From: Thermoproteota archaeon | GTDB taxonomy: Archaea > Thermoproteota > Thermoprotei > Gearchaeales > Gearchaeaceae | Direction of reading: 5' to 3' | Assembly (NCBI GenBank): GCA_032249235.1 | Contig: JAVVGF010000004.1 | Location: 1 to 64,000 of the forward strand | Length of the DNA stretch: 64,000 nt | In this document: one piece after another, positions 15,116 through 28,890 of the stretch | Numbering within the stretch: position 1 is the stretch's first letter | How the letters are laid out: the number at the start of each line of letters is the position of its first letter | Position numbers and translations under genes: made by a program | Notes under the pieces: generated by a model | The model's database searches: none | The model's input: only the letters and a program-made list of their open reading frames with translations | Told to the model about the DNA's origin: nothing

Positions 15116-15188
15116 TGGGACCGCCAGGATTTGAACCTGGGCCACCAGGGCCCGAGCCTGGCAGTCTACCAAGCTATCCTACGGTCCC
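15116..15188 (-). tRNA. tRNA-Pro(CGG)
   Basis: GGGACCG/CGGTCCC acceptor stem, CCAGG-CTCGGGC-CCTGG anticodon arm. Confidence 0.94.
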
Positions 15189-18545: not shown

Positions 18546-18632
18546 GTTCTTCTTATTTTTGAGCTTTTATATAAAAACTTCAAACTTGAAAGTTTAAATA
18601 AGGGAGACCACAATATAATGTTAGTTCTAACC

Positions 18633-20291
18633 ATGGCGTTGGCAACTCCTTCTGCTGTAGTCCCTGTGTTAATATTGAAGGAAGGTACTCAAAGAACTGT
18701 AGGATATGAAGCTCTACGTTCAAATATAGCAGCTGCTAGAGCAATAGCAGAAACAGTCAAATCGTCTTTAGGTCCAAGAGGAATGGATAAAATGCTAATT
18801 GATAGCATAGGAGACATTACAATTACGAATGACGGTGCAACAATATTAAAGGAAATAGAGGTTCAGCATCCCGCTGCTAAATTACTCGTTCAAATATCCA
18901 AGACATTAGACGATGAAGTTGGGGATGGCACTACTAGCTCTGTAGTTATCGCAGGCGAATTACTTAAAGGCGGTGAAGCATTAATTGAGAAAAATATTCA
19001 TCCAACAGTTATAGCGAGCGGTTATAGAAAAGCCTTAGCAAAAGCTAAAGAATTATTGGAAAAGCATTCTATTAAAGTAGATATTAACGACGACGCCATA
19101 TTGAAGAAGGTATGCTTGACAGCAATACATGGTAAAGCTGTCGGTCCTGTAAGAGATTATCTAGCAGATATATGCGTTAAAGCGGTTAAGAAAGTTGCTG
19201 AAGAAAGAGACGGAAAAATATATGTCGATTTGGATAGAATTCAATTAATTAAAAAACAAGGCGGTAGTTTATATGATACGAAATTAATCGAGGGTATAAT
19301 AATAGATAAAGAAGTAGTTCACCCTGGAATGCCTAAACGTATAGTGAATGCGAGGATTGTTTTGCTTGATACTCCTTTAGAAATAGAAAAGCCTGAAATC
19401 GATGCTGAAATAAGAATAACTGATCCTTCCCAAATAAGGGCATTCCTAAATGAAGAAGAAAAAATACTAAAGAGTATGATAGATAAAATACGCTCTCCCG
19501 AAATTAATGCGAATGTTGTGATATGTCAGAAAGGAATAGATGATATAGCTCAGCACTACTTGGCCAAATATGGAATATTAGCGGTAAGAAGGGTGAAAAA
19601 ATCTGATATGGAGAAACTTGCACTTGCAACAGGAGCTAAGATTGTTACGAATATTGAAGATCTATCTCCTTCAGATGTAGGAGAAGCAGCTTTAGTGGAA
19701 GAGAGAAAAGTAGGAGAAGATAAAATGGTCTTTGTTGAAGGTTGTAAGAATCCTAAAGCAGTCAGTATATTAATTAGAGGTGGTTTAGAGAGATTAGTTG
19801 ATGAGGCAGAAAGATCAATTATAGATGGTTTAAGTGTTGTTGCTGATGTGCTTGAATATCCTTATGTATGCGTAGGAGGTGGCGCAATTGAAATGGAAAT
19901 CTCTAAAGAACTTGCAGAATATTCCAAAAAGATAGGAGGAAGAGAACAACTAGCTATAGAAAGCTTCATAAATGCTTTAGAAGTTATACCTAGAGCTATT
20001 GCTGAAAATGCTGGTGCAGATCCGATCGATGCACTTGCAGAACTAAGGGCTTTACATGCAAAAGAAGGAGGAAAATATTACGGAATTGATGGTATAACAG
20101 GTAAACCTGCAAACTTATTCGAAGCAGGTGTTTTAGAACCAACATTGGTTAAATTACAAGTCTTAACAGCTGCAACAGAAGCAGCTACTACTATATTAAG
20201 GATTGATGAAGTAGTGGCGGCTTCAAAGATATCAAAGGAAGCACCACCTAAACCTAAAGAAGGAGAAAAAGAAGAAACAAGCTCTGAGTGA
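18633..20291 (+). CDS. ths: thermosome (group II chaperonin) subunit
   Basis: [26 protein letters not shown]; likely start ATG 18633. Confidence 0.97.
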
Positions 20292-20857
20292 AAATTTTAG
20301 TTTGCGGCACTCCAGGAGTAGGTAAGACTACTTTAAGTATATTTTTATCCTCATTTTCTTTTCATTATTTTAATTTAAATACCGTTGCTTTCTATAGCAA
20401 TTCCTTTTTGAGTTATGATAAAGAAAGAGATTCTTATATTGTAAATACATCAAAATTATTAAAGATATCAGAAAAATTATTTGAAATTTTCGATAAAATA
20501 ATTCTTGATTCGCATATCGTTGAAAGCGTTCCAATTGATATCGATTTAGTATTACTTCTTAGATCAGATCCGTTGCTTTTGTACAAAAGGCTTTATCGTA
20601 AATATGGAAAGAAGAAAATAATTGAGAATGTAGAAGCCGAATTCTTAGGTATTGTTGCAAACGATTGTTATAATAGATTCAATTCTAAAAAAATATTTGA
20701 AATAGTTACTAATAATCTAAATCTTGCGAAGAGAATTGCAAAGGAAATCCTTTATAGTCGTAAGAAGAGAAAATGGAAGAAAATTGACTGGCTTGAAATT
20801 TATGAAAAAAGACGGAAAATTGAAGTTTATCATTCAATGATTTCTAAGTCTGAATGA
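20288..20857 (+). CDS. AK6/Fap7-type adenylate kinase/ATPase
   Basis: [20 protein letters not shown]. Confidence 0.85.
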
Positions 20858-21933
20858 TCATCATTATCAAATATAATCATTTCCTGTTCTTGCTCAGAAA
20901 TTCTTTCTAGATTAAATACTTCTCCGTCTTTATCAAGGATCAAAATTTCGCCAGCTTTATTTGAGGTATTTAAATTTTGTCTTTTTAATTCTAATAATTC
21001 CTCTATTCTTTGATTCATGAAATCCTTTTCAATAGCTATTAAGTCAGTAAGATCTATTATTTCTTTAGGTAAGTCCTCAATCTTATCTAATATCAAGAAA
21101 ATATTCTGATTACTCTTAACTATTTGATAAAACAAATCCCAAAGTTGTAAATTAGATGATTTATAAATATAACTTATCAAAGATGTCGGTATATTAAAAA
21201 AGATAATAGAGATAGAATAATTTTTAATTTTAAATAATGTATTAAATATAAGATTTAAAAGAATCAATTTTAATCTGAAATTATTTAAGATTCCAAGGGA
21301 TATCCAAAAATTCTTTATTTCAGTTTTTTCTTTCTTATTTTCAATAATAATTTCTTCCAATATTTTATTGCTAATTAATTCTTCTAGTTTCTTATTTAAG
21401 TTATATTTAATTTCGTTTTCATATTGGCTCTTAAAATATGATTCTTTAATTATATTAAATATATCTTTAAATGTAATAATTTCTTTATTTTGGGGATATA
21501 ATCTATCAATGAGTATTCTCCTAAGTAATGCGGCTTCATCTCTTGATAAATTATAGTATTCGATTAATAATTCAGTAAAATAGGTAATGAAATCATATAT
21601 GCTATCGAAGTAACTAAAGAATTTTCCTAGATACTTTAGATTTTTATTGATGAAATTTTCCCCATTCTTCTCTTTAATTAGTTCATCATGCCATTCAATA
21701 TATATCGATTTATAGTATAGACTTGTTTTCTCTATCACGTCAAGGATAAAATCCCTTATCCTTGCACCTTGATTTATAATAATAAATAGCTTATTGCTAT
21801 TAAGATTTAAGTTAAAGTATTTGCCCGTTATTTTATCTTTTCCTATTATAATTCCTTTATTCAAATAAAAATATGAATATGTCTTATTTAAATATTCGAT
21901 GATCTGTTTCAATAATATTACTCCCTGCATCAA
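20830..21933 (-). CDS. degenerate HerA/VirB4-like ATPase (Walker A absent)
   Basis: IGKD..TG..F.L, then IINQGAR at the expected P-loop; IYIEWHDE resembles DWHGEY; DLP.EI...TD resembles the post-sensor motif. Confidence 0.45.
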   Translation of the reverse strand: MMQGVILLKQIIEYLNKTYSYFYLNKGIIIGKDKITGKYFNLNLNSNKLFIIINQGARIRDFILDVIEKTSLYYKSIYIEWHDELIKEKNGENFINKNLKYLGKFFSYFDSIYDFITYFTELLIEYYNLSRDEAALLRRILIDRLYPQNKEIITFKDIFNIIKESYFKSQYENEIKYNLNKKLEELISNKILEEIIIENKKEKTEIKNFWISLGILNNFRLKLILLNLIFNTLFKIKNYSISIIFFNIPTSLISYIYKSSNLQLWDLFYQIVKSNQNIFLILDKIEDLPKEIIDLTDLIAIEKDFMNQRIEELLELKRQNLNTSNKAGEILILDKDGEVFNLERISEQEQEMIIFDNDDHSDLEIIE

Positions 21934-22331
21934 ATGAGCAAGAAAGGAAAGACCTTTTCGTAAATTATTTGTTTTTCTTTTTCATCTATCATTTTTAGAT
22001 TGTAATTAAAGACTAAATTTAATTGGTTAATTACCAATTCAAATATGTCGTGCAATTTTTTATCTTTTTTTATTATATTTTCTTTCCAAATTAGAATATA
22101 TAGAGTATTTAATTTATTATAATCTGATCCTGTTTCGCTAAATGTGAAAAATAGAAATCTTAAATTATATTTTTTCATATTTTCAATAAAATTCAATAAT
22201 AAATCTTCCTTAAATTCGATGTTTTTAAATAGATCATATTTTAAAATTGTATAAAAAAAGTATTTAATTCCTTTCCTTTTTTTGTTTATGACAAGTTTTT
22301 CTTTGTTTCTTCTTATCCAATGCCAAGCCAT
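21930..22331 (-). CDS. hypothetical protein (pilus operon)
   Basis: 133-aa ORF overlapping both neighbours. Confidence 0.6.
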   Translation of the reverse strand: MAWHWIRRNKEKLVINKKRKGIKYFFYTILKYDLFKNIEFKEDLLLNFIENMKKYNLRFLFFTFSETGSDYNKLNTLYILIWKENIIKKDKKLHDIFELVINQLNLVFNYNLKMIDEKEKQIIYEKVFPFLLI

Positions 22332-22549
22332 TTGCCTATTTGATAGAGTATGTTGCCAATTTGGTTCAATATATCATTGAACGAACTTGAAATGTTTGAG
22401 CCAAAAGAGGTATAGTAACTTTTAATTCCCAATAATACGCCTGCTATAATACTCAAGACAACTGAAAATGCTACTGCTGCTATACCTAGTAAAAGGCCTT
22501 CTTCGAGTAAAGGAGATCCTTTTTTATTTTTTAGTATCTTCTTCATCAC
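22313..22549 (-). CDS. short type IV (Flp-like) prepilin
   Basis: Class III signal peptide: basic N-terminus, KKG|SPLLE with E at +5, then a hydrophobic helix. Confidence 0.8.
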   Translation of the reverse strand: MMKKILKNKKGSPLLEEGLLLGIAAVAFSVVLSIIAGVLLGIKSYYTSFGSNISSSFNDILNQIGNILYQIGKWLGIG

Positions 22550-22559
22550 TGGATATTAT

Positions 22560-23198
22560 TTAAATGATATAAAGGCTCAACACATTTCTTGTCAATACGA
22601 AGTAGATGATTATTTGCATTACAGCGTATATTAATAGACTGGTTATAAAATGTGTTTTTATTGATTTGAGATCAAAAAAGATGGTCAATATCAAAAGCGA
22701 GTTAATCGATAAAAATATCGCATAGAAAATGACCGTCAGCATATTTGGCATGATGCTAAAGTTCATTGTTTCAAGCAAGTAAGAAAATTTTAAATGTCCT
22801 ACTGAACTAAGCCACGGTAAGATTGAGTATGTAATTGAAAGCATAATATTCATAATGAATATTCTCATCTTCAAAATTCTCAAAAATCTCTCAAAATATT
22901 CGATTGTATTATCGAGCATGTTAATATACGCTAGAACTTTGCTTGCTTTGATTTTTTGTTTTTTGTTTAGTAAAACGAAGCTAGAAGCAAGCACACTCAA
23001 CTCTCTTATTCTCCCTTCTTCTTTGCTTAATTTATTTAGAATCCTATGTGCGGGTATTCCTTTCTTCAAAAGATTGATAAAGCTTTCCAACCTTTTTTTG
23101 TTAGCATCTTCATATAATGATTTATCAATACTTTGATAAGTTATGCTCACTAAGCTCCTATTAATCGAGTCTTTAATTTCGTCTAATTTATTCCTCAT
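22560..23198 (-). CDS. TadB/TadC-like membrane platform protein (putative)
   Basis: Soluble helical N-terminal part (L..GIP...IL) followed by about three TM helices; lies downstream of the secretion ATPase. Confidence 0.55.
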   Translation of the reverse strand: MRNKLDEIKDSINRSLVSITYQSIDKSLYEDANKKRLESFINLLKKGIPAHRILNKLSKEEGRIRELSVLASSFVLLNKKQKIKASKVLAYINMLDNTIEYFERFLRILKMRIFIMNIMLSITYSILPWLSSVGHLKFSYLLETMNFSIMPNMLTVIFYAIFLSINSLLILTIFFDLKSIKTHFITSLLIYAVMQIIIYFVLTRNVLSLYII

Positions 23199-23700
23199 AT
23201 GCGATCTCTTTTTTCAATTTTCTGTAGATCAGATAAGTAAAAAACAAGGGTATCGTCAATAATATGAATTCGCTTATATGTATTAGAAAGGATGACACAA
23301 TTAATACAATGGGTAGCGGATAAAGGACGGCCACAAATAATATGAAGTAAAAATTTATTTTTTCAGTCAAATCTTGAAGTAGCATTTTGTTCTTTTCTAA
23401 ATAAGTAATTATATATAATTCATCAACTTTCTTATTTATATTATAGTTATCTAAGATTACTTTTATTTCGTAACCTTTTATTAAATTTGAAAGATATCTA
23501 ATTATATGATTAGCATCGATCCCCTTACTTTGATAATAAATAATTTTTTCTAATATAAATTTGTTTATAGATAAGATCTCGCTATTTAAATTTTTTAATA
23601 ATTTATTTAGATTTATACCTGCACCTTTTAATAATAGAAATTTAATTAAAAGAAAATTTATTAAGCTTATATATAATAGGAATTTATTTTTACTGCCCAT
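23188..23700 (-). CDS. TadB/TadC-like membrane platform protein (putative)
   Basis: LL.GAG.NL helical motif followed by two C-terminal TM helices; overlaps the ATPase stop. Confidence 0.5.
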   Translation of the reverse strand: MGSKNKFLLYISLINFLLIKFLLLKGAGINLNKLLKNLNSEILSINKFILEKIIYYQSKGIDANHIIRYLSNLIKGYEIKVILDNYNINKKVDELYIITYLEKNKMLLQDLTEKINFYFILFVAVLYPLPIVLIVSSFLIHISEFILLTIPLFFTYLIYRKLKKEIAYEE

Positions 23701-25393
23701 TTATAATATCATTAATTATATTTTTTATTTCATTTATTAATCCGTTCGGTTCTATATTTTTTTCTTTCATTATTTTTAGGGAAGTTTTTAGAGTTAATAT
23801 TTTGTTTAATGTTAGTATATCTTTTTCTGAATATATTAAATTTAAATTTGGATAATTATTTTTTTCATATATTTCATAAACTTTATTTACTTTTCTTATA
23901 ATTTTATTTCCAATGATTTCTCTTTTCATTTCCACTATAAGGTCTAGTAAGCAAATATTTTCGGGGGAGATTCTGTGCTGAGATATCCACCTCGCAATAA
24001 GCTCCTCAGCTGTCTTAGAGTGGCATGTAACTAATCCTCTAAGGCCAGCCAATATAGAGTGAAAGAATGCTTTAGAATGCTCCTTAGTTTGAATTTCTCC
24101 TAAAAATATCCAATCTGGGGATCTATGCAAAAGTTTAATTATTTCATGTGATTTTTTGGAATATTTACCGGCAACATCTATAGAGCTTGTTTTTATATAA
24201 ACACTATGAGGTATATTTTCCAATGAAGAATATACTTCATCAACGTCCTCTAAATAAATCTTTCTGAATTCAACAGGTAAATGCCTTGCAAGTGCATGAG
24301 CAAGTGTTGTCTTACCGCTATTAGGTTCTCCGCATATTACTAACGAAAGTCTATTTTTCACACATAAAACTAGAAATGCTGCAAGCTCGAGTGGTAAGCT
24401 TTCCTTTTCAATTAATTCTTTTAAGCTAAATAATCTTCTTCTGAATTTTCTTATATCTATACTGGTATCTTCTACGATCGGAAATGTATCGATGGCTATT
24501 CTCAATTTAACTTTTTCATCCTTAATACTTACTTTAATTGAAGGCTGACCTACGCTAATTTCTTCGCCCGTCAAAATACTGATAAAAGTTTTAAACTTTT
24601 CCACGTCTACGCTATTAAGGTAAATATTAGTTTCGCATCTTCCATACAATTCATGATCTAGATATACCCAACTGTTTTCCTTATCCAAATATAATTCTTG
24701 GACATCTTGATCTAACATTGCAACGATTAATTTCCTAAGGGAATTAGAAGATCCATCCATCCTTTCTAATAACTTAAAAGGTGAGCCACTATCTACTATC
24801 TCATTGCTCTCTAGCTTAATGTAATAAAAGTATTTTGAACCTATTTTTATCACTTCAATAGAATAACTATTCTCAGATTTTGAAAAGATTTTAAACTTTT
24901 CAATATTCAACCATCTCTCATCTAGATCTACTGAATTTTCAAAAATTCTCATGTATACCATTTTTTTATCATATTCCATTTTTATATAATCCAATATTTC
25001 CGATAATAAACTATCTTTATAAAATTCTTTAATGACTTTTTTATAATTTAATATTTCGCATAAAGTTTCATATGGTTCAATCAGTATATTATGAAAAAAA
25101 TTATTACTTACTTTGTATAATAATTTCAGTTTTATTTTAGTTATAATATTATTTAGAAATTTAGTAGTATTGATGTATTTCCTTATAGTTTCATTCTTAA
25201 ATGTCTTTTTAATTTTTGTATTTGTAAAGACAACTTCGTTTATATTTATTTTGTAAGTTTGCAAACACTTTACAAGTTTAAGCCTACAAGAACTACTGCA
25301 ATCTAATCCTATTTCTTTTTCTGAATATGGGCAGATAAATATTATTTTGTTATCCTTTATACGCGTATTGCATTTTTCACATTTCGCGCTCAT
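23690..25393 (-). CDS. type II/IV secretion (TadA/VirB11/ArlI-family) ATPase
   Basis: DIRKF, Walker A GEPNSGKT, Asp box LEDVDE, Walker B PDWIFLGEI, His box TCH; Cys-rich N-terminus. Confidence 0.9.
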   Translation of the reverse strand: MSAKCEKCNTRIKDNKIIFICPYSEKEIGLDCSSSCRLKLVKCLQTYKININEVVFTNTKIKKTFKNETIRKYINTTKFLNNIITKIKLKLLYKVSNNFFHNILIEPYETLCEILNYKKVIKEFYKDSLLSEILDYIKMEYDKKMVYMRIFENSVDLDERWLNIEKFKIFSKSENSYSIEVIKIGSKYFYYIKLESNEIVDSGSPFKLLERMDGSSNSLRKLIVAMLDQDVQELYLDKENSWVYLDHELYGRCETNIYLNSVDVEKFKTFISILTGEEISVGQPSIKVSIKDEKVKLRIAIDTFPIVEDTSIDIRKFRRRLFSLKELIEKESLPLELAAFLVLCVKNRLSLVICGEPNSGKTTLAHALARHLPVEFRKIYLEDVDEVYSSLENIPHSVYIKTSSIDVAGKYSKKSHEIIKLLHRSPDWIFLGEIQTKEHSKAFFHSILAGLRGLVTCHSKTAEELIARWISQHRISPENICLLDLIVEMKREIIGNKIIRKVNKVYEIYEKNNYPNLNLIYSEKDILTLNKILTLKTSLKIMKEKNIEPNGLINEIKNIINDIINGQ

Positions 25394-25763
25394 TTTTTCT
25401 TTTAATTAGATTAGGTAAGAATTCTTCAATTGTAGCTAATATATTAGCCACTTTACTATCAATTTCATTTACTCTTTTTTCTAATTCATTTACTTTTTTC
25501 TTATAATTATCGAAAACATTTCTTAAATTTGTTAAATCAAAATTTAAACTTATAATTTCCTTTTCAAGATCCATAAAGCTTTCTTCTTCTTCGTTTTCTT
25601 CTTTCTTTCTTTCACTTTCTTCTTCAGGAAAGCGACTTAATACTTCTTCGATCTTTTTTTCTTCTATACCAATTTTTTCTAAAATTTCTTTAATATCATT
25701 CTTGCTTAATTTTTTTTCATTTAAAATCTTAACAAAATCTATTAATTTAATTCTTAATGCCAT
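25377..25763 (-). CDS. hypothetical coiled-coil protein
   Basis: Acidic linker and heptad-rich C-terminal half; overlaps both the TFB and ATPase genes. Confidence 0.65.
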   Translation of the reverse strand: MALRIKLIDFVKILNEKKLSKNDIKEILEKIGIEEKKIEEVLSRFPEEESERKKEENEEEESFMDLEKEIISLNFDLTNLRNVFDNYKKKVNELEKRVNEIDSKVANILATIEEFLPNLIKRKNEREM

Positions 25764-26706
25764 TTACTTTTAAAAGAGACTTATGTTCTCTTAATGAAAA
25801 CTCAGGCACTCCTGTAATTTGCCTGATCAATCTATGCGATAATATAGGCTTAATTTTCATTTCTTTAGCAACTAATTTATCAGCTACATATAATACAGCT
25901 GCAGCAAACACGAAAGGGCTTTTTCCTTGCACTTTTACCTCATCAAAATTTTCAATTATTTCTAATGATTTCTTTTTGATCAAATTTAATAGAGTTTGTT
26001 TATCAATTTCTAATCCTTTTTTATAAATTATTTTATTTATATCTTCGTTATTAATACAAAGTTTATGAAATCTTTCAAGATATATTTTTACTAAATATTT
26101 ATATGAAAAGAATTTATTAAGAACTTTCTTACTTATTATTGATGAACACCATGCAATATTTCCTTTTGTAACTCTATGTCCATGTTTTAGGAAGACATTC
26201 GTTATTTCTTCTAAACTTAATACTCTATTTTCTCCAAGTATCCTTGACATGACCAAAAGACATGCAGCATAAACAGTTGGTGTCGTGTATCTATAACCAT
26301 TTGATTTCAAATACTTTATAGACTTAAGATATAATTTCAACGTGGCAAACACAATGTTTTTGCTTAAATTTAATTCATTTGAAATTTGCATGATACTATT
26401 TAAAAGTAGACTATTTATCATAGATGAAGCTTGATAAGCTTTCAATTTATCATCTACTCTTTTCAACATTCTTAGAGAATTTTGGGTGTTTTCGCTTAAG
26501 GGATCATTTATAAAATCTTTGAAGATACCATAAGAAGAAGGCATCAATTTACCTCCTAGAGGAATCGTCGGCATGATCGCTACACTGTCTTCATATTCAT
26601 TATTCACGTAGGTGTTTATTTGATGAACTAAGCCGCATGAACTACATGTTAAATCACCTTCTTTAGTCTTGATTAAAATTCCACCGCATTCTTTGCATTT
26701 CTCCAT
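25747..26706 (-). CDS. divergent transcription initiation factor B (TFB) paralog
   Basis: Zn ribbon CKEC-x-G.L.CSSCGLV and two cyclin repeats (YAACL; QGKSP...AAAVLY); B-reader region diverged. Confidence 0.85.
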   Translation of the reverse strand: MEKCKECGGILIKTKEGDLTCSSCGLVHQINTYVNNEYEDSVAIMPTIPLGGKLMPSSYGIFKDFINDPLSENTQNSLRMLKRVDDKLKAYQASSMINSLLLNSIMQISNELNLSKNIVFATLKLYLKSIKYLKSNGYRYTTPTVYAACLLVMSRILGENRVLSLEEITNVFLKHGHRVTKGNIAWCSSIISKKVLNKFFSYKYLVKIYLERFHKLCINNEDINKIIYKKGLEIDKQTLLNLIKKKSLEIIENFDEVKVQGKSPFVFAAAVLYVADKLVAKEMKIKPILSHRLIRQITGVPEFSLREHKSLLKVNGIKN

Positions 26707-26858
26707 TTCATAAGAACTTTTGTTAAGAGCAAATAAGATGCTTGGTAGATTTAATTAAGCTATAGATTAGCAAGTTAATGTTGTAAAGTTGTTTTTAACG
26801 GTTAAGGGTTGACCGAAAGTGATAAAGTAAATATACTAGATTAAAATAATGAAATTTC

Positions 26859-27272
26859 ATGGCAATACCAGTAAGAAGAATTCAAACTGAACTTCTAAAT
26901 TTATTGGATAGGGAAGTAGAAGTCTTCACCACGTATGGTAAAAGATATTTTGGTAAAGTTTTGGCTATTGAACCAGATAAATTGAGCTTAGTAATGAGCA
27001 ATGTCAAAGATGAAGCAGGTAACTTTTTCTCATTGCTTGTTTTAAATGGTTCAGTTGTGGGCGAAATAAAAATGGCAGCGCCATATTATGATTTGAAAGA
27101 ATTGGCTGATAAATTAGAGAAATATTTCCCAAGATTAGTAAATTATGATAGTATTTCAAAAGTAATAGTGGTCGCAGATAAGGTTCGAATCCTTCCTGAT
27201 GGTACAGTAGAAGGCACTGGTCCTATAGCAGATAAGGTTCGTGCTTTATGTAGCGAATTTTTCAAAAAATAA
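26859..27272 (+). CDS. Lsm protein with C-terminal extension (SmAP3 type)
   Basis: Sm fold (LLDREVEV...Y.G......L.L.N) plus a C-terminal domain ending GP.A. Confidence 0.85.
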   Translation: MAIPVRRIQTELLNLLDREVEVFTTYGKRYFGKVLAIEPDKLSLVMSNVKDEAGNFFSLLVLNGSVVGEIKMAAPYYDLKELADKLEKYFPRLVNYDSISKVIVVADKVRILPDGTVEGTGPIADKVRALCSEFFKK

Positions 27273-27279
27273 TTAAATT

Positions 27280-28890
27280 ATGTTTTTTGAGATTGTAGAT
27301 AAATCACTATTAGGTAGAATAGGTAAAATTTATACTAGAAATGGTTATTTTGAGACGCCCGCTTTATTTCCTGTTATAAAAGTAGACTTTAATCCAGACT
27401 TAATTTTGTATTTAAAAAAGTTGAATTGTAAAACTATAATAACTAATGCATATTTATTATGGAAAAAATTAAATAAAGAAGTTGTAGATATTCATCAATA
27501 TTTTAATTTTACAAATATAATAATGACAGATTCAGGTGGATATCAAGTGTTAAAGTACAGAGATATAGAAATAACTCCTAAAGAATCTTTGCTTTATCAA
27601 ATTAAAATTAAAAGCGATATAGGTGTTATATTAGATTATCCGACAGGCTTATCTGAAGATATTGATTTTGCTAAAAGAAGTGTAACTTTGACTCTAAGAA
27701 GAGCGAGTTATGCTAAAAGATTCCTAAAAGAAAGTGATATGATCATCGTAGCACCAATACAAGGAGGCATGTTTTATTCTTTGTTAACAAAATGTGCCCT
27801 GAAAATGAAAGAAATGGGTTATGAAATGTTCGCCATAGGCAGCCCTACAGGCCTTATGGAAAGATATAGATATAAAGAGGTATTGCAAATGATACTTACT
27901 GTAAAAAAGGTCCTCGGTAATTCTAAACCTATTCATTTATTTGGTGCAGGTCATCCCATGTTTTTCCCCTTCATTGTCGCATTGGGCATTGACACATTTG
28001 ATTCTGCCGCTTATAGTCTTTATGCTAAAGATAATCGCTACATGACTAGAACTAGGACATATAGATTAGACGAGTTATCATATTTACCGTGTAACTGCGA
28101 AGTATGTAGAAGAATTGATGCCGAGACTTTCAAAAATTTGAATCCAAACATGAGAATAACTTTGCTTGAGAAACACAACCTATATGTTTCTTTGGAAGAG
28201 ATTAAACATATAAAACTCCACATAAAGGAAGGCACATTATGGAATTATTTGGAGGAAAAAGCTCGTGCCCATCCATATCTTTATGAAGCATTTGTTTTCC
28301 TCAAAGAAAATATAGATATTATTGAAGAATATGATCCTATTACTAAAATCAATGTTTCAGGCATCTTCTTTTTTGATCCTTATTCTTCACTGCATCCTTC
28401 AGTAATAGGCTATCATAAAAGATTATTACGCAACTATGTTGTAGGCAAAGGCGATGTTGCAATATTTATTCCTTTTTTAAAAGAGAAACCTTTTAGTAGA
28501 AGCCATTTAATGAAAAATTTTAAAGAAAAAATAATTAAACAGTTAAATCAAGAGTTGATTAATAAGATACGTGTAATATTTGTAGGATACCCTTTTATCT
28601 TAATACCATATGAATTATCGGAAATATATCCTAATTCTCAATGGGAAGGAGAAGTTGATAGTTTTCCATATAGAAAGTATTTACATTCATTTATAAAGAA
28701 AATAATCTCAAAATTAGAATTAAGTAAGTCAATTTTAATTATTAGTAGAAAATCTCAAAGATTATTTTATCTTATAGAGAGTAATCTAAAAGATAATAAC
28801 GTTGAGGTTTTAAAAATTATTGTTGAAAAAAATTTAAGCGAAACTATAGAAAAGAACAGAGTTCTTATAGAAGATTTCCTTAAAAAGTAA
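27280..28890 (+). CDS. tgtA: archaeosine tRNA-guanine(15) transglycosylase
   Basis: GRIG..ETP, MTDSGGYQ, PIQGG, HLFGAGHP, DTFDSAAY, CNCEVC..HNL; no evident C-terminal PUA domain. Confidence 0.95.
   Translation: MFFEIVDKSLLGRIGKIYTRNGYFETPALFPVIKVDFNPDLILYLKKLNCKTIITNAYLLWKKLNKEVVDIHQYFNFTNIIMTDSGGYQVLKYRDIEITPKESLLYQIKIKSDIGVILDYPTGLSEDIDFAKRSVTLTLRRASYAKRFLKESDMIIVAPIQGGMFYSLLTKCALKMKEMGYEMFAIGSPTGLMERYRYKEVLQMILTVKKVLGNSKPIHLFGAGHPMFFPFIVALGIDTFDSAAYSLYAKDNRYMTRTRTYRLDELSYLPCNCEVCRRIDAETFKNLNPNMRITLLEKHNLYVSLEEIKHIKLHIKEGTLWNYLEEKARAHPYLYEAFVFLKENIDIIEEYDPITKINVSGIFFFDPYSSLHPSVIGYHKRLLRNYVVGKGDVAIFIPFLKEKPFSRSHLMKNFKEKIIKQLNQELINKIRVIFVGYPFILIPYELSEIYPNSQWEGEVDSFPYRKYLHSFIKKIISKLELSKSILIISRKSQRLFYLIESNLKDNNVEVLKIIVEKNLSETIEKNRVLIEDFLKK

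What the first reader, a model, noticed from the sequence alone, without database searches (positions are those of the whole stretch)
20830..26706. Eight-gene coupled operon: dedicated TFB paralog, type IV pilus module and dead HerA/VirB4-like ATPase
Seen: all genes are on the minus strand and overlap or nearly abut. The order is TFB paralog, coiled-coil protein, secretion ATPase with intact Walker/Asp/His boxes, two small platform-like membrane proteins, a 78-aa prepilin (KKG|SPLLE), an unknown protein and a HerA/VirB4-like ORF lacking Walker A. The block looks more AT-rich than the flanking core genes. Established: in Sulfolobales the truncated TFB3 activates the unlinked Ups pili and Ced (CedB is VirB4/HerA-like) DNA-exchange systems. 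Inference: a self-contained, sigma-factor-like module in which a full-length alternative TFB is co-transcribed with a contact or DNA-transfer pilus. It does not match the Ups, Aap, bindosome or archaellum gene sets as I know them.
Basis: partly seen in the sequence, partly recalled or inferred. Interest (0 to 1): 0.75.

Follow-up and report, generated by a model that had tools for sequence, protein, structure and literature searches.

The report
TFB-linked mini-pilus operon, dead CedD
This is a real eight-gene operon that encodes a small type IV pilus-like machine, its own divergent TFB transcription factor and a burnt-out relative of the DNA-import ATPase CedD, and the same module turns out to be conserved across Thermoproteota and Asgard archaea.

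Summary
Eight minus-strand ORFs (20830-26706) overlap at 6 of 7 junctions, and the block is among the most AT-rich 0.1% of the genome.
- a divergent TFB;
- a coiled-coil protein;
- an intact FlaI/VirB11-type ATPase;
- two single-domain T2SSF platform proteins;
- a 78-aa class-III-type mini-pilin;
- a split HerA-type ATPase that has lost Walker A and Walker B.

The operon is not unmatched. It is the positional ortholog of the published "subclade/subsystem 4D" T4P-like locus (thermosome | membrane protein-ATPase-TFIIB | RPB8/Lsm). That locus is described in print as pilin-less and probably a remnant.

Three things found here are not in those papers:
- The system has a conserved mini-pilin: 60 of 120 genomes of the class, 97 of 121 Asgard genomes sampled.
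- Its HerA-like gene is a CedD homologue. CedD is the DNA-import ATPase of Sulfolobales.
- The linked TFBs form a subfamily of their own, next to the ATPase in 41 of 45 loci inspected.

The most likely function is a thin pilus or pseudopilus started by a dedicated TFB. The DNA translocase is degenerate in this family. Function is inferred, not shown.

The parts
25747..26706 (-). Divergent TFB paralog (319 aa): N-terminal CxxC...CxxC zinc ribbon and two cyclin-like repeats. The C-terminal helix-turn-helix is retained and the B-reader region is divergent. First gene of the operon.
   Evidence: Pfam TFIIB 2e-6 and Zn_Ribbon_TF 3.6e-5. hhalign to canonical TFB: prob 99.2, E 7.5e-20. It scores 412 bits on the linked-TFB profile, against 66-102 bits for 23 canonical TFBs. 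It lies on the other side of a 99% SH-aLRT branch from the canonical TFBs.
25377..25763 (-). Small cytoplasmic protein (128 aa): a helical N-terminal domain of about 45 aa, an acidic linker and a coiled coil. Role unknown.
   Evidence: Only coiled-coil-type Pfam/NCBIfam hits, all below cut-off. Orthologs sit at the same position in families f1, f2, f3 and f6.
23690..25393 (-). Secretion ATPase of the FlaI/VirB11/TadA superfamily (567 aa) with intact Walker A, Walker B and His box, and an N-terminal four-cysteine region.
   Evidence: T2SSE 2.1e-14. FlaI 7.2e-24 and VirB11 8.4e-19. Invariant G355-T363, E433 and H458. Full-length homologs of 35-99% identity.
23188..23700 (-). Platform protein A (170 aa): reduced single-domain T2SSF (TadB/TadC-like).
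   Evidence: No direct Pfam hit. hhalign of the f1 profile to longer orthologs gives E 9e-6, and of those orthologs to PF00482-positive proteins E 6e-7.
22560..23198 (-). Platform protein B (212 aa): reduced single-domain T2SSF.
   Evidence: hhalign of the f1 profile to longer orthologs: E 3e-7 over 180 columns. Those orthologs to T2SSF proteins: E 1.5e-6. AF2 model of the ortholog L032 (pLDDT 82): its cytoplasmic domain matches EpsF, PilC and OutF domains at TM(target) 0.69-0.73, rmsd about 3 A, prob 1.00, but E only 0.2-0.4. Atlas feature hits to T2SSF clusters at 0.90-0.92.
22313..22549 (-). Mini-prepilin (78 aa): basic leader, [KR]-[GA] followed by S-P-L-x-E-E-G, one hydrophobic helix, a Ser/Asn-rich loop and an amphipathic helix. 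The predicted mature protein is about 67 aa with Glu at +5/+6.
   Evidence: E16, E17 and L20 are invariant in 21 sequences. The family is found in 60 of 120 class genomes and 97 of 121 Asgard genomes, and gives 217 representative clusters at E<=1e-3. A metatranscriptome contig covers 22291-22534 with 0 mismatches.
21930..22331 (-). ORF7 (133 aa): remnant of the N-terminal domain of a CedD-like protein, without its transmembrane helices.
   Evidence: It sits between the pilin and the ATPase-domain gene. In f3 one 638-640-aa protein spans both positions, and in f2 and f6 it is split in two. hhalign to CedD-like N-terminal domains: E 5.6e-4 over 102 columns.
20830..21933 (-). ORF8 (367 aa): degenerate ATPase domain of a CedD-like (HerA/VirB4 superfamily) protein. 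Walker A and Walker B are both lost.
   Evidence: Alignment A3. Orthologs hit DUF87 at 5e-17 to 1.5e-21 and the CedD model at 1.2e-43 to 1.5e-73, below its 600-bit cut-off. The window ORF has no hit of its own.
26707..26858 (.). Divergent intergenic region between the TFB paralog and the Lsm gene. It holds A/T boxes and a conserved element of about 20 nt, roughly 114 nt upstream of the TFB start. Presumed promoter or operator region.
   Evidence: An element matching one short pattern occurs 54-159 nt upstream of the TFB start in 15 of 20 loci from seven groups. Function untested.

Best explanation
The operon encodes a complete but minimal type IV filament machine of the published '4D' lineage.

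How the machine would work (inferred from the families):
- A FlaI/TadA-like hexameric ATPase works through a platform split into two single-domain T2SSF proteins, as TadB and TadC are.
- It extracts a very small class-III-signal-peptide pilin from the membrane and polymerises it.
- The pilin has Glu at +5/+6 and no globular head, like Flp and Epd pilins.
- It is presumably processed by the prepilin peptidase encoded elsewhere in the genome.
- The product would be a thin pilus or a short pseudopilus.

The first gene is a member of a distinct, ancient TFB subfamily that travels with this ATPase in Thermoproteota and Asgard archaea. It keeps the zinc ribbon, both cyclin folds and the C-terminal helix-turn-helix, but has a divergent B-reader. 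It most likely acts as a dedicated initiation factor for the module, including its own promoter.

The last two genes are the split, catalytically dead, anchor-less remains of a CedD-type membrane DNA translocase. That protein is intact in sister families. In this family, any DNA-import role the ancestral module had is lost, reduced to a scaffold, or taken over by an unlinked intact CedD-like ATPase.

Shown: gene content, homologies, conservation, loss of motifs. Inferred: filament assembly, the role of the TFB, the link to DNA.
For: Tight coupling of the eight ORFs.

Identity of the parts:
- ATPase motifs are intact.
- Both membrane proteins link to T2SSF by transitive profile comparison (E 3e-7 / 1.5e-6 and 9e-6 / 6e-7). 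The fold of an ortholog's cytoplasmic domain matches EpsF and PilC (TM 0.70-0.73).
- The pilin motif is invariant in 21 sequences.
- A prepilin peptidase (PF01478, 30.1 bits) is present at G000:C6:30339.

Place in the published 4D lineage:
- Same flanks and order as published 4D loci (thermosome | membrane-ATPase-TFIIB | RPB8, Lsm) in L144, L037 and L143 and in the paper's supplementary table.

Conservation:
- The whole operon is conserved in 13 class loci and in five further families of the phylum.
- The TFB lies beside the ATPase in 41 of 45 loci.
- Linked TFBs score 155-412 bits on the profile, apart from one outlier at 96 bits (L039); canonical TFBs score 66-102 bits. The canonical clade is split off at SH-aLRT 99.

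CedD link:
- CedD homology of intact orthologs and loss of Walker A/B in all six f1 members.
- An intact CedD-like ATPase at G000:C5:16933-18003 carries a GKS-type Walker A and a DEAH-type Walker B.

Expression hint:
- RNA-library contigs cover the pilin gene and the 5' half of the TFB gene at 99-100% identity.
- Pilin genes carry a TATA-like box of their own in many lineages.
Against: - No experiment on any member of this system is known to me or was found.
- No direct Pfam hit exists for the window's platform proteins or pilin. The model of the window's own 212-aa protein found no fold match.
- Foldseek E-values for the ortholog's model are only 0.2-0.4.
- Cleavage by the prepilin peptidase is inferred from a motif alone.
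- Published views differ. Makarova et al. 2016 suggested a non-pilus, transcription-related role. The 2026 census calls 4D a probable remnant.
- The block is the most AT-rich 0.1% of the genome and its proteins evolve fast (22-58% identity within one family), which could mean relaxed constraint.
- The RNA evidence comes from assembled contigs of one metatranscriptome. It cannot show strand, starts or co-transcription, and DNA carry-over is possible.
- Nothing shows that the TFB paralog binds TBP, DNA or RNA polymerase.
Confidence: 0.6

Rival explanations
1. The module is still a working DNA-uptake or DNA-exchange pilus in this organism. The pilus makes contact or binds DNA. A CedD-type ring moves DNA across the membrane: the dead ORF7/ORF8 pair acts as adaptor and the unlinked intact CedD-like ATPase supplies the motor. 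The TFB switches the system on after DNA damage, as TFB3 does for Ups and Ced in Sulfolobales.
For: - Intact orthologs of ORF8 hit the CedD model (1.5e-73, 1.2e-43, 2.7e-53, 1.1e-59).
- CedD has the same TM + NTD + ATPase build and is essential for DNA import in two Sulfolobales (PMC11868833 passages; PMC11823120 section 16).
- The pilin gene is directly followed by the CedD-like gene in f2, f3, f19, f20, f21, f23 and f28.
- The arrangement of a thermosome gene with a convergent cedD is shared with Sulfolobaceae-type loci, where a TFB3-like gene also sits beside the thermosome gene in 4 of 5 loci.
- An intact CedD-like ATPase lies elsewhere in the genome.
Against: - In the window's family, Walker A, Walker B and the membrane anchor of the linked copy are all gone.
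- The CedD-like gene is missing from the module in f4, f8 and f11, and from 17 of 20 Asgard loci; only a distant giant HerA-like gene is nearby in the other 3. DNA translocation therefore cannot be the core function.
- All CedD-model hits are far below the 600-bit equivalog cut-off.
- CedA, CedB and a VirB2-like pilin were not found in the locus.
- The TFB3-like proteins align better with canonical TFB (E 1e-14 over 161 columns) than with the linked subfamily, where only the zinc ribbon aligns.
Confidence: 0.25
2. The machine is no longer a filament system. It is a membrane-bound device that controls transcription. The ATPase and platform hold, release or modify the TFB paralog, in the manner of an anti-sigma or checkpoint mechanism. 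The system's output is then a change in gene expression (the 'transcription-related pathway' of Makarova et al. 2016).
For: - The TFB and ATPase genes abut or overlap in lineages as far apart as Asgard and Thermoproteota. That is more typical of physical partners than of a regulator and its target.
- RpoG/RPB8 (PF16992, 8.1e-13) lies next to the TFB in f3, f6, f8 and f4.
- In f4 the system is reduced to TFB + ATPase + one membrane protein, with the pilin unlinked.
Against: - A strongly conserved pilin is the best-conserved protein of the module and is linked to the ATPase in most lineages. In Asgard, 54 of the 93 genomes that hold both have them within 5 kb, and 69 of 93 within 15 kb.
- The pilin is kept even where it is unlinked.
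- The ATPase keeps all motifs of an assembly motor.
Confidence: 0.15
3. The block is a decaying, non-functional remnant of a type IV filament locus, as the 2026 census suggests for subsystem 4D.
For: - Extreme AT-richness.
- The HerA-type gene is dead and split.
- The platform proteins are shortened relative to other families.
Against: - All eight frames are open with conserved lengths in six genomes of the family, which have diverged to 22-58% identity.
- ATPase catalytic columns are invariant.
- The pilin is 62-83% identical within the family.
- The module is kept across two phyla.
- RNA-library contigs cover the pilin and TFB genes.
Confidence: 0.05
4. The block is an integrated mobile element or virus-derived island, which would explain the low GC.
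For: Low GC relative to the flanks. VirB11/VirB4-like genes are typical of conjugative elements.
Against: - The same chromosomal slot (thermosome/kinase on one side, Lsm/arcTGT on the other) is occupied in families f1, f2, f3, f6, f8 and f4.
- No integrase or flanking tRNA was seen: the nearest tRNAs are at 15116 and 32033.
- There is one copy per genome.
Confidence: 0.02

Closest known systems
Archaeal T4P-like 'subclade 4D' (Makarova, Koonin and Albers 2016, PMC4858521) = 'subsystem 4D' (PLoS Genet 2026, PMC13705601)
   Same: - Divergent secretion ATPase with a cysteine-rich N-terminus.
- Adjacent small polytopic membrane protein(s).
- A TFIIB homolog in the same operon.
- The same chromosomal slot between the thermosome gene and RPB8/Lsm. 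L144 and L037 reproduce the published order and gene sizes, and the window's HMMs hit their ATPase and TFB.
   Different: - The published description says there are two components and that no pilins are ever found; the TFIIB variant is said to be specific to Pyrobaculum-Thermoproteus, and the system is called a likely remnant.
- Here the locus has eight genes, including a conserved mini-pilin, two platform proteins, a coiled-coil protein and a CedD-like gene.
- The TFB is full-length (two cyclin folds).
- RPB8 is not adjacent in the window.
Ups pili + Ced DNA importer + TFB3 regulon of Sulfolobales
   Same: - A TFB paralog is tied to a pilus and to a HerA/VirB4-superfamily membrane ATPase.
- ORF8's intact orthologs are CedD homologs.
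- cedD lies convergent to the thermosome gene, as ORF8 does here, with a TFB3-like gene on the other side of the thermosome gene.
   Different: - In Sulfolobales the genes are scattered, and TFB3 is truncated and acts in trans.
- The Ced pilus is built from a VirB2-like pilin, with CedA and CedB.
- Here everything sits in one operon, the pilin is of the class III / type IV kind, and no CedA or CedB is present.
- The CedD-like protein here is dead.
- TFB3-like proteins are closer to canonical TFB than to this subfamily.
Bacterial Tad/Flp pili and archaeal Epd-type pili
   Same: - TadA-like ATPase: the C-terminal half is 38-44% identical to Asgard proteins annotated TadA/CpaF.
- The platform is split into two single-domain T2SSF proteins, like TadB and TadC.
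- The pilin is very short, with Gly at -1 and Glu at +5. (The Flp 'G/XXXXEY' and Pfam 'QXSXEXXXL' motifs are recalled, not taken from a call.)
   Different: - The pilin has no Pfam or NCBIfam hit to Flp or class-III-signal models.
- There are no TadE/F/G, secretin or TadZ equivalents.
- The TFB and the CedD-like gene have no counterpart in Tad or Epd loci.
Ted system of Thermoproteales (Beltran et al. 2023, PMC9905601)
   Same: A small pilin plus a HerA/VirB4-like ATPase in crenarchaeal chromosomes. In family f8 the mini-pilin lies about 5 kb from a membrane-anchored CedD-like ATPase.
   Different: - TedC is reported as a VirB2-like pilin cleaved by signal peptidase I, with a VirB6-like TedA (passages).
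- This pilin has a class-III-type [KR]-G|S motif, and the machine has a T2SSE ATPase and T2SSF platform.

Membership tests
Type IV filament (T4F/T4P-like) system | Secretion ATPase of the PilB/FlaI/TadA (T2SSE) family with intact nucleotide-binding motifs | tested here: met
   PF00437 2.1e-14. FlaI model 7.2e-24. Walker A, catalytic Glu and His box are invariant in 31 sequences.
Type IV filament (T4F/T4P-like) system | Polytopic platform protein with a T2SSF (PilC/TadB/TadC/FlaJ) domain | tested here: met
   There is no direct Pfam hit. Transitive hhalign: f1 to longer orthologs E 3e-7 and 9e-6; longer orthologs to PF00482-positive proteins E 1.5e-6 and 6e-7. The ortholog model matches EpsF/PilC/OutF cytoplasmic domains at TM(target) 0.69-0.73. 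The evidence is indirect for the window's own two proteins.
Type IV filament (T4F/T4P-like) system | [quoted passage not shown] | tested here: met
   Met at motif level only: [KR]-[GA] then S-P-L-x-E-E-G and a hydrophobic helix, conserved in 21 sequences and in the short hits among 217 clusters. Cleavage was not tested.
Type IV filament (T4F/T4P-like) system | Prepilin (class III signal) peptidase in the genome | tested here: met
   PF01478 at G000:C6:30339-30659, 30.1 bits, above the 26.5-bit cut-off. It is not in the operon.
Subclade/subsystem 4D (Makarova 2016) | TFIIB homolog in the same predicted operon as the ATPase and the membrane protein | tested here: met
   Window. The window-derived HMMs hit adjacent ATPase and TFB genes in loci with the published 4D arrangement (L144, L145, L143, L037).
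Subclade/subsystem 4D (Makarova 2016) | Chromosomal context: thermosome gene on one side, RPB8 (RpoG) on the other | tested here: inconclusive
   The thermosome and Lsm flanks are shared. RpoG (PF16992, 8.1e-13) is adjacent in f3, f6, f8 and f4, but not in the window or its family, where the Lsm gene directly follows.
Subclade/subsystem 4D (Makarova 2016) | No pilin or secreted protein in the locus (as published) | tested here: not met
   A conserved mini-pilin is in the locus here and in f2, f3, f6 and f11. It is unlinked but present in f4 and f8. This argues for amending the family description rather than excluding the locus.
Subclade/subsystem 4D (Makarova 2016) | ATPase falls in the 4D clade of a reference phylogeny (arCOG05558) | not tested
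   No arCOG reference set was on hand. Only HMM score classes (orthologs at 243 bits or more, paralogs at 201 bits or less) and synteny were used.
CedD (NCBIfam NF053655, DNA-translocating ATPase of the Ced system) | Score above the equivalog cut-off (600 bits) | tested here: not met
   The window ORF8 and ORF7 have no hit. Intact orthologs score 150-248 bits. True CedD (676-731 bits) was found in only one family, 6 of 6 genomes, among 161 genomes.
CedD (NCBIfam NF053655, DNA-translocating ATPase of the Ced system) | Architecture of TM helices + N-terminal domain + HerA/VirB4-like ATPase with Walker A and B | tested here: not met
   Met by orthologs in f3 (638-640 aa) and split in f2 and f6. 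In the window the TM helices are absent, the NTD is a separate 133-aa ORF, and Walker A and B are lost.
HerA/FtsK superfamily (Pfam DUF87, PF01935) | Significant match to the P-loop domain model | tested here: not met
   The window ORF8 has no hit. Membership is inferred only through orthologs (PF01935 5e-17 to 1.5e-21) and alignment A3.
Canonical TFB / TFIIB | Zinc ribbon, B-reader/B-linker and two cyclin repeats at full family score | tested here: inconclusive
   The zinc ribbon and both cyclin repeats align. The NCBIfam TFIIB model gives only 28.9 bits against a cut-off of 384, and the B-reader segment does not align. Two canonical TFBs are encoded elsewhere. The protein is a member of the superfamily, not of the canonical family.
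TFB3 (truncated TFB of Sulfolobales) | Short protein (about 170-195 aa) with a zinc ribbon and no second cyclin repeat | tested here: not met
   The window protein is 319 aa with two cyclin repeats. TFB3-like proteins beside cedD align with canonical TFB over 161 columns (E 1e-14), but with the linked subfamily only over the zinc ribbon.
Tad/Flp pilus | Flp-family pilin (Pfam Flp_Fap) | tested here: not met
   The pilin and two orthologs have no Pfam hit at E up to 0.1-1. The resemblance is in size, Gly at -1 and Glu at +5 only.

The most novel reading that the evidence does not exclude
This is the ancestral form of archaeal pilus-coupled DNA exchange, and it carries its own initiation factor. 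A machine made of TFB + ATPase + split platform + mini-pilin (+ CedD) predates the split of Asgard and Thermoproteota. The Ups/Ced/TFB3 regulon of Sulfolobales would be its dispersed descendant, and the '4D remnant' of Pyrobaculum its reduced form. The dedicated TFB is not only a local activator but is mechanically coupled to the machine, held or released by the ATPase and platform. Filament state would then reprogram transcription. That would be an archaeal counterpart of sigma/anti-sigma checkpoints, built on the eukaryote-type TFIIB scaffold and nearly universal in Asgard archaea.
Probability: 0.2. Interest if true: 0.9.

Novelty: new variant of a known kind. Interest (0 to 1): 0.75.

Why it matters
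The 4D system has stood in the literature since 2016 as an oddity: two components, no pilin, and a TFIIB homolog thought to be confined to Pyrobaculum and Thermoproteus. In 2026 it was called a probable remnant whose scattered parts are unlikely to act together.

The window and its relatives show a coherent machine instead:
- a conserved mini-pilin, annotated only as 'hypothetical' where it is named at all;
- a split T2SSF platform;
- in many lineages, a homolog of the DNA-import ATPase CedD;
- a TFB subfamily of its own that stays beside the ATPase in both Thermoproteota and Asgard archaea.

This gives a concrete, testable case of a dedicated alternative TFB tied to one cellular machine. It also suggests where cedD and its place next to tfb3 in Sulfolobales came from. 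Finally, it points to an unannotated filament system in about 80% of the Asgard genomes sampled, where surface structures bear on models of eukaryogenesis. All function remains inference until the pilin, the TFB and the ATPase are tested.

Tried and rejected
- The related-loci scan of genome contigs with the ATPase alignment used generic P-loop patterns. It returned mostly bacterial CpaF-like loci; only L038 and L039 were useful.
- The AF2 model of the window's own 212-aa membrane protein (pLDDT 83.7) found no Foldseek match at E<=0.001 and only generic helical matches with VIA-align (best Z 8.4). An hmmsearch of its alignment against PDB sequences found nothing relevant.
- A first mixed-family hhalign to T2SSF was weak (E 0.013 and 0.073). 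It became convincing only after the window's family was separated from the longer orthologs.
- Complex prediction of the ATPase with the TFB paralog gave 'no answer' (score 0.00). This counts neither for nor against binding.
- I planned a position-weight-matrix scan of the genome for the conserved element upstream of the TFB gene. I stopped that step, so whether the element marks a regulon is open.
- TFB3 as a descendant of the linked TFB subfamily is not supported by sequence.
- Mobile-element origin is rejected on synteny.
- The sigma-70 / intrinsic-terminator scan is uninformative for an archaeon: 48 sites found against 45 expected, and 0 terminators.
- Parts of the operon without cover in the RNA-library contigs (ATPase, platform genes, ORF8) are no evidence of silence.
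- The careful ML tree did not finish in time, so the quick tree is reported.
- The supplements of the 2026 PLoS Genet paper were not looked at. They may list 4D components that bear on the novelty claim.

Full report
**1. The observation**

The window belongs to a 1.43-Mb, 18-contig archaeal genome (91% complete) with 31.7% GC. Names attached to homologs place it in Thermoproteota.

Six of the seven junctions overlap by 4-19 nt. Only the junction in front of the pilin gene has a gap, of 10 nt. The 3' end of the last gene overlaps the convergent kinase-like gene by 28 nt.

The block has 26.1% GC, lower than 99.9% of 1338 equally long windows of the genome. The impression of AT-richness is therefore correct.

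**2. What the parts are**

*TFB.* The first gene is a divergent TFB:
- Pfam TFIIB 2e-6 and zinc ribbon 3.6e-5.
- A profile of 14 orthologs aligns with the genome's canonical TFB over 274 columns (prob 99.2, E 7.5e-20). The alignment covers the zinc ribbon, both cyclin repeats and the C-terminal helix-turn-helix, but not the B-reader segment.
- The genome has canonical TFBs elsewhere.

*ATPase.* The third gene is a FlaI/VirB11/TadA-type ATPase. Its nucleotide-binding and catalytic columns are invariant in 31 orthologs. It has a four-cysteine N-terminus shared with the sister family.

*Platform proteins.* The two membrane proteins have no Pfam hit. A model of the 212-aa one found no fold match. 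Longer orthologs gave the link:
- The window family's profiles match the longer orthologs at E 3e-7 and 9e-6.
- Those orthologs match PF00482-positive single-domain proteins at E 1.5e-6 and 6e-7.
- An AF2 model of the 283-aa ortholog (pLDDT 82) places its cytoplasmic domain on EpsF, PilC and OutF domains: TM by target 0.69-0.73, rmsd about 3 A, prob 1.00, but E only 0.2-0.4.
- Language-model feature hits point the same way.

*Pilin.* The 78-aa ORF has a basic leader, [KR]-[GA], then S-P-L-x-E-E-G, a hydrophobic helix, a Ser/Asn-rich loop and an amphipathic helix. The two Glu residues and a Leu are invariant in 21 orthologs from 13 families. A prepilin peptidase gene lies on another contig.

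*The last two ORFs.* These are the most interesting:
- The positional orthologs of ORF8 in three other families hit DUF87/HerA (5e-17 to 1.5e-21). They carry Walker A and Walker B where all six members of the window's family have unrelated residues.
- In one family a single 638-640-aa protein has N-terminal TM helices, a middle domain and the ATPase domain. In two families it is split in two.
- The window's ORF7 aligns with that middle domain (E 5.6e-4) and has no TM helix.
- The best curated model for the intact orthologs is CedD (1.5e-73, 1.2e-43, 2.7e-53, 1.1e-59; always below the 600-bit cut-off).
- CedD is described as TM + NTD + HerA/VirB4-like ATPase and is essential for DNA import in Saccharolobus islandicus and Sulfolobus acidocaldarius (passages of PMC11868833; section 16 of PMC11823120).

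**3. It is the published '4D' system, in a fuller form**

Makarova, Koonin and Albers (2016; section 14 read) describe subclade 4D of Thermoproteales in these terms:
- an ATPase with a cysteine-rich N-terminus plus one 4-5-TM protein;
- 'no potential pilins ... ever found';
- a TFIIB homolog in the operon, and RPB8 next to it.

Their supplementary table lists the order thermosome (+), membrane protein (-), ATPase (-), TFIIB homolog (-), RPB8 (+) for Pyrobaculum and Vulcanisaeta (passages).

- L144 has the thermosome gene, a 178-aa membrane protein, a 342-aa ATPase, a 157-aa TFB, RpoG in the opposite orientation and Lsm.
- L037 and L143 have a 259-aa membrane protein, a 520-525-aa ATPase, a 275-aa TFB and RpoG.

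The window's operon occupies the same slot: S17e, thermosome and a kinase-like gene on one side, Lsm and arcTGT on the other.

The whole eight-gene order is kept in the other five loci of the family and, with changes, in the sister family and in two further families. The 2026 census (sections 7 and 15 read in passages) still lists 4D as ATPase + platform without a pilin, 'likely a remnant'. I found no other paper on it.

**4. What is new relative to those papers**

*(a) The pilin.*
- A profile of the mini-pilin finds it in 60 of 120 genomes of the class, including the two families with published-type 4D loci: 20 of 31 and 11 of 29 genomes, at weaker E-values. It was not found in 0 of 23 and 0 of 4 genomes of two other families.
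- It lies in the ATPase locus in five families. Elsewhere it is unlinked or on other contigs, and in three families it sits directly beside the thermosome gene.
- Against 1.84 billion representative proteins the profile gives 217 hits at E<=1e-3 (29 at 1e-10). Part of these are long repetitive proteins that match only the Ser/Asn-rich half. The short ones share the cleavage-site motif.
- The few named members are 'hypothetical protein' of Nezhaarchaeales, Wukongarchaeota and Heimdallarchaeota.

*(b) Asgard archaea.* I sampled the phylum that holds the genome of L038, a record titled Candidatus Sifarchaeum.
- 97 of 121 sampled genomes have the pilin.
- 104 of 121 have an ATPase at ortholog-level score.
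- Of the 93 genomes with both, the two genes are within 5 kb in 54 and within 15 kb in 69. They are on different contigs in 22.
- In 20 loci fetched, a TFB lies by the ATPase in 17. Two of the three misses are cut by contig ends. The pilin is present in all 20.

*(c) The TFB subfamily.*
- On a profile built only from Thermoproteota-linked TFBs, the Asgard-linked ones score 155-245 bits and 23 canonical TFBs of both phyla score 66-102 bits.
- In the same Asgard genomes the canonical TFBs lie elsewhere and hit Pfam TFIIB at 48-94 bits. The linked ones reach 21-28 bits, like the window's.
- A quick ML tree puts all canonical TFBs behind one branch with 99% SH-aLRT. One long-branch linked sequence (L039) attaches on their side. 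The careful search did not finish.
- Over all loci inspected, the TFB is next to the ATPase in 41 of 45.

*(d) CedD.*
- The full order TFB ... ATPase-platform-pilin-CedD-like recurs in five more families of the phylum and in an unclassified high-GC archaeal MAG.
- True CedD (676-731 bits) occurs in one family only, 6 of 6 genomes among 161 sampled.
- There cedD lies convergent to the thermosome gene, as ORF8 does here. A 166-195-aa zinc-ribbon TFB3-like gene lies on the other side of the thermosome gene in 4 of 5 loci.
- This supports positional orthology of ORF8 and cedD. The TFB3-like proteins, however, align better with canonical TFB than with the linked subfamily. I therefore do not claim that TFB3 descends from it.

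**5. How it most likely works**

*Shown:* gene content, homologies, motif loss and conservation.

*Inferred from the families:*
- The ATPase hexamer drives the split T2SSF platform to assemble peptidase-processed mini-pilins into a thin, Flp/Epd-like filament or pseudopilus.
- The TFB paralog keeps everything needed to sit on TBP and DNA and to recruit RNA polymerase, but has a different B-reader and recognition helix. It most likely starts transcription at the module's own promoters.

*Weak hints on expression:*
- A conserved element lies about 54-159 nt upstream of the TFB start in 15 of 20 loci.
- Pilin genes often carry their own TATA-like box, including in the window.
- Contigs of one hot-spring metatranscriptome cover the pilin gene (22291-22534, no mismatch) and the 5' half of the TFB gene (26293-26642). 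They are contigs from one study and cannot show strand or co-transcription.

*The DNA link.* It is plausible for the ancestral Thermoproteota module, but it is not the core function. The CedD-like gene is absent from the module in three families and from most Asgard loci, and it is dead in the window's family. An intact, anchor-less CedD-like ATPase elsewhere in the genome (111 bits on the CedD model, Walker A and B present) could substitute. That is speculation.

**6. Verdict**

The claim that the operon matches nothing known is wrong: it is 4D. But the locus, read together with its relatives, changes what 4D is. It is a complete pilin-bearing machine with a dedicated TFB subfamily, often coupled to a CedD-type translocase, and widespread in Thermoproteota and Asgard archaea.

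I rate it a new variant of a known kind and of high interest. All functional statements are marked as inference.

Noticed in passing
L125:1285-2037 (= G000:C5:59530-60282, minus strand) with G000:C5:60279-68968: A second type IV pilus-like locus in the same genome: a 528-aa ATPase, a 619-aa nine-TM platform protein and several proteins with N-terminal hydrophobic helices. It ends with a 68-aa protein and a 250-aa zinc-ribbon, weakly TFIIB-like protein (PF00382, 16.6 bits). A second, different TFB-like gene is therefore tied to a pilus locus.
   Followed up: partly
L127:1081-2151 (= G000:C5:16933-18003, minus strand): An intact, anchor-less CedD-like/HerA-type ATPase (356 aa; CedD model 5.7e-32, DUF87 1.1e-20) with Walker A and B present, unlinked to the operon. 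Similar second copies occur in four relatives of the family.
   Followed up: partly
window 26800-26845 (intergenic, upstream of the TFB paralog): A conserved element of about 20 nt lies 54-159 nt upstream of the linked TFB start in 15 of 20 loci of seven groups. This holds whether the upstream neighbour is Lsm (divergent) or RpoG (same strand). The genome-wide scan was not done.
   Followed up: partly
L217:6866-10821: In the family with true CedD, the order is TFB3-like gene (195 aa), thermosome gene, convergent cedD, with S17e nearby. This is the same thermosome/convergent-CedD arrangement as in the window.
   Followed up: yes
L118:1805-2452: Directly after the canonical TFB gene lies a 215-aa ORF made of two cyclin repeats only, with no zinc ribbon or B-reader.
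   Followed up: no
L132:8629-14432; L133:3947-10685; L142:6927-13627: In one family the unlinked mini-pilin lies about 5 kb downstream of a membrane-anchored CedD-like ATPase (94-101 bits on the CedD model for two of the three). Alongside are a 414-426-aa four-TM protein, a coiled-coil protein and a helicase-like gene, with housekeeping genes in between.
   Followed up: partly
L176:2326-6105; L180:1265-5155; L186:1288-5016: Giant (1242-1296 aa) HerA/CedD-like proteins lie 2-5 kb from the TFB-ATPase-pilin triad in 3 of 20 Asgard loci (CedD model 7e-15 for one).
   Followed up: no
L136:8928-10581: In one family three further small proteins with N-terminal hydrophobic helices (282, 147 and 109 aa) lie between the platform gene and the mini-pilin. 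They may be minor pilins.
   Followed up: no
window 18618-20857 and 26859-28890: The block thermosome, P-loop kinase-like gene, [operon], Lsm-C-domain protein (PF14894, 8.8e-10), arcTGT-like gene is syntenic across several families of the class. It is a useful anchor for finding the module.
   Followed up: yes
G000 whole genome: PF00482 (T2SSF) finds no match in the window's genome at E<=0.001, although at least two pilus loci with platform-like proteins exist. The same holds for 4 of the other 8 genomes of the family. Pfam-based censuses will therefore miss platforms in these AT-rich genomes.
   Followed up: partly
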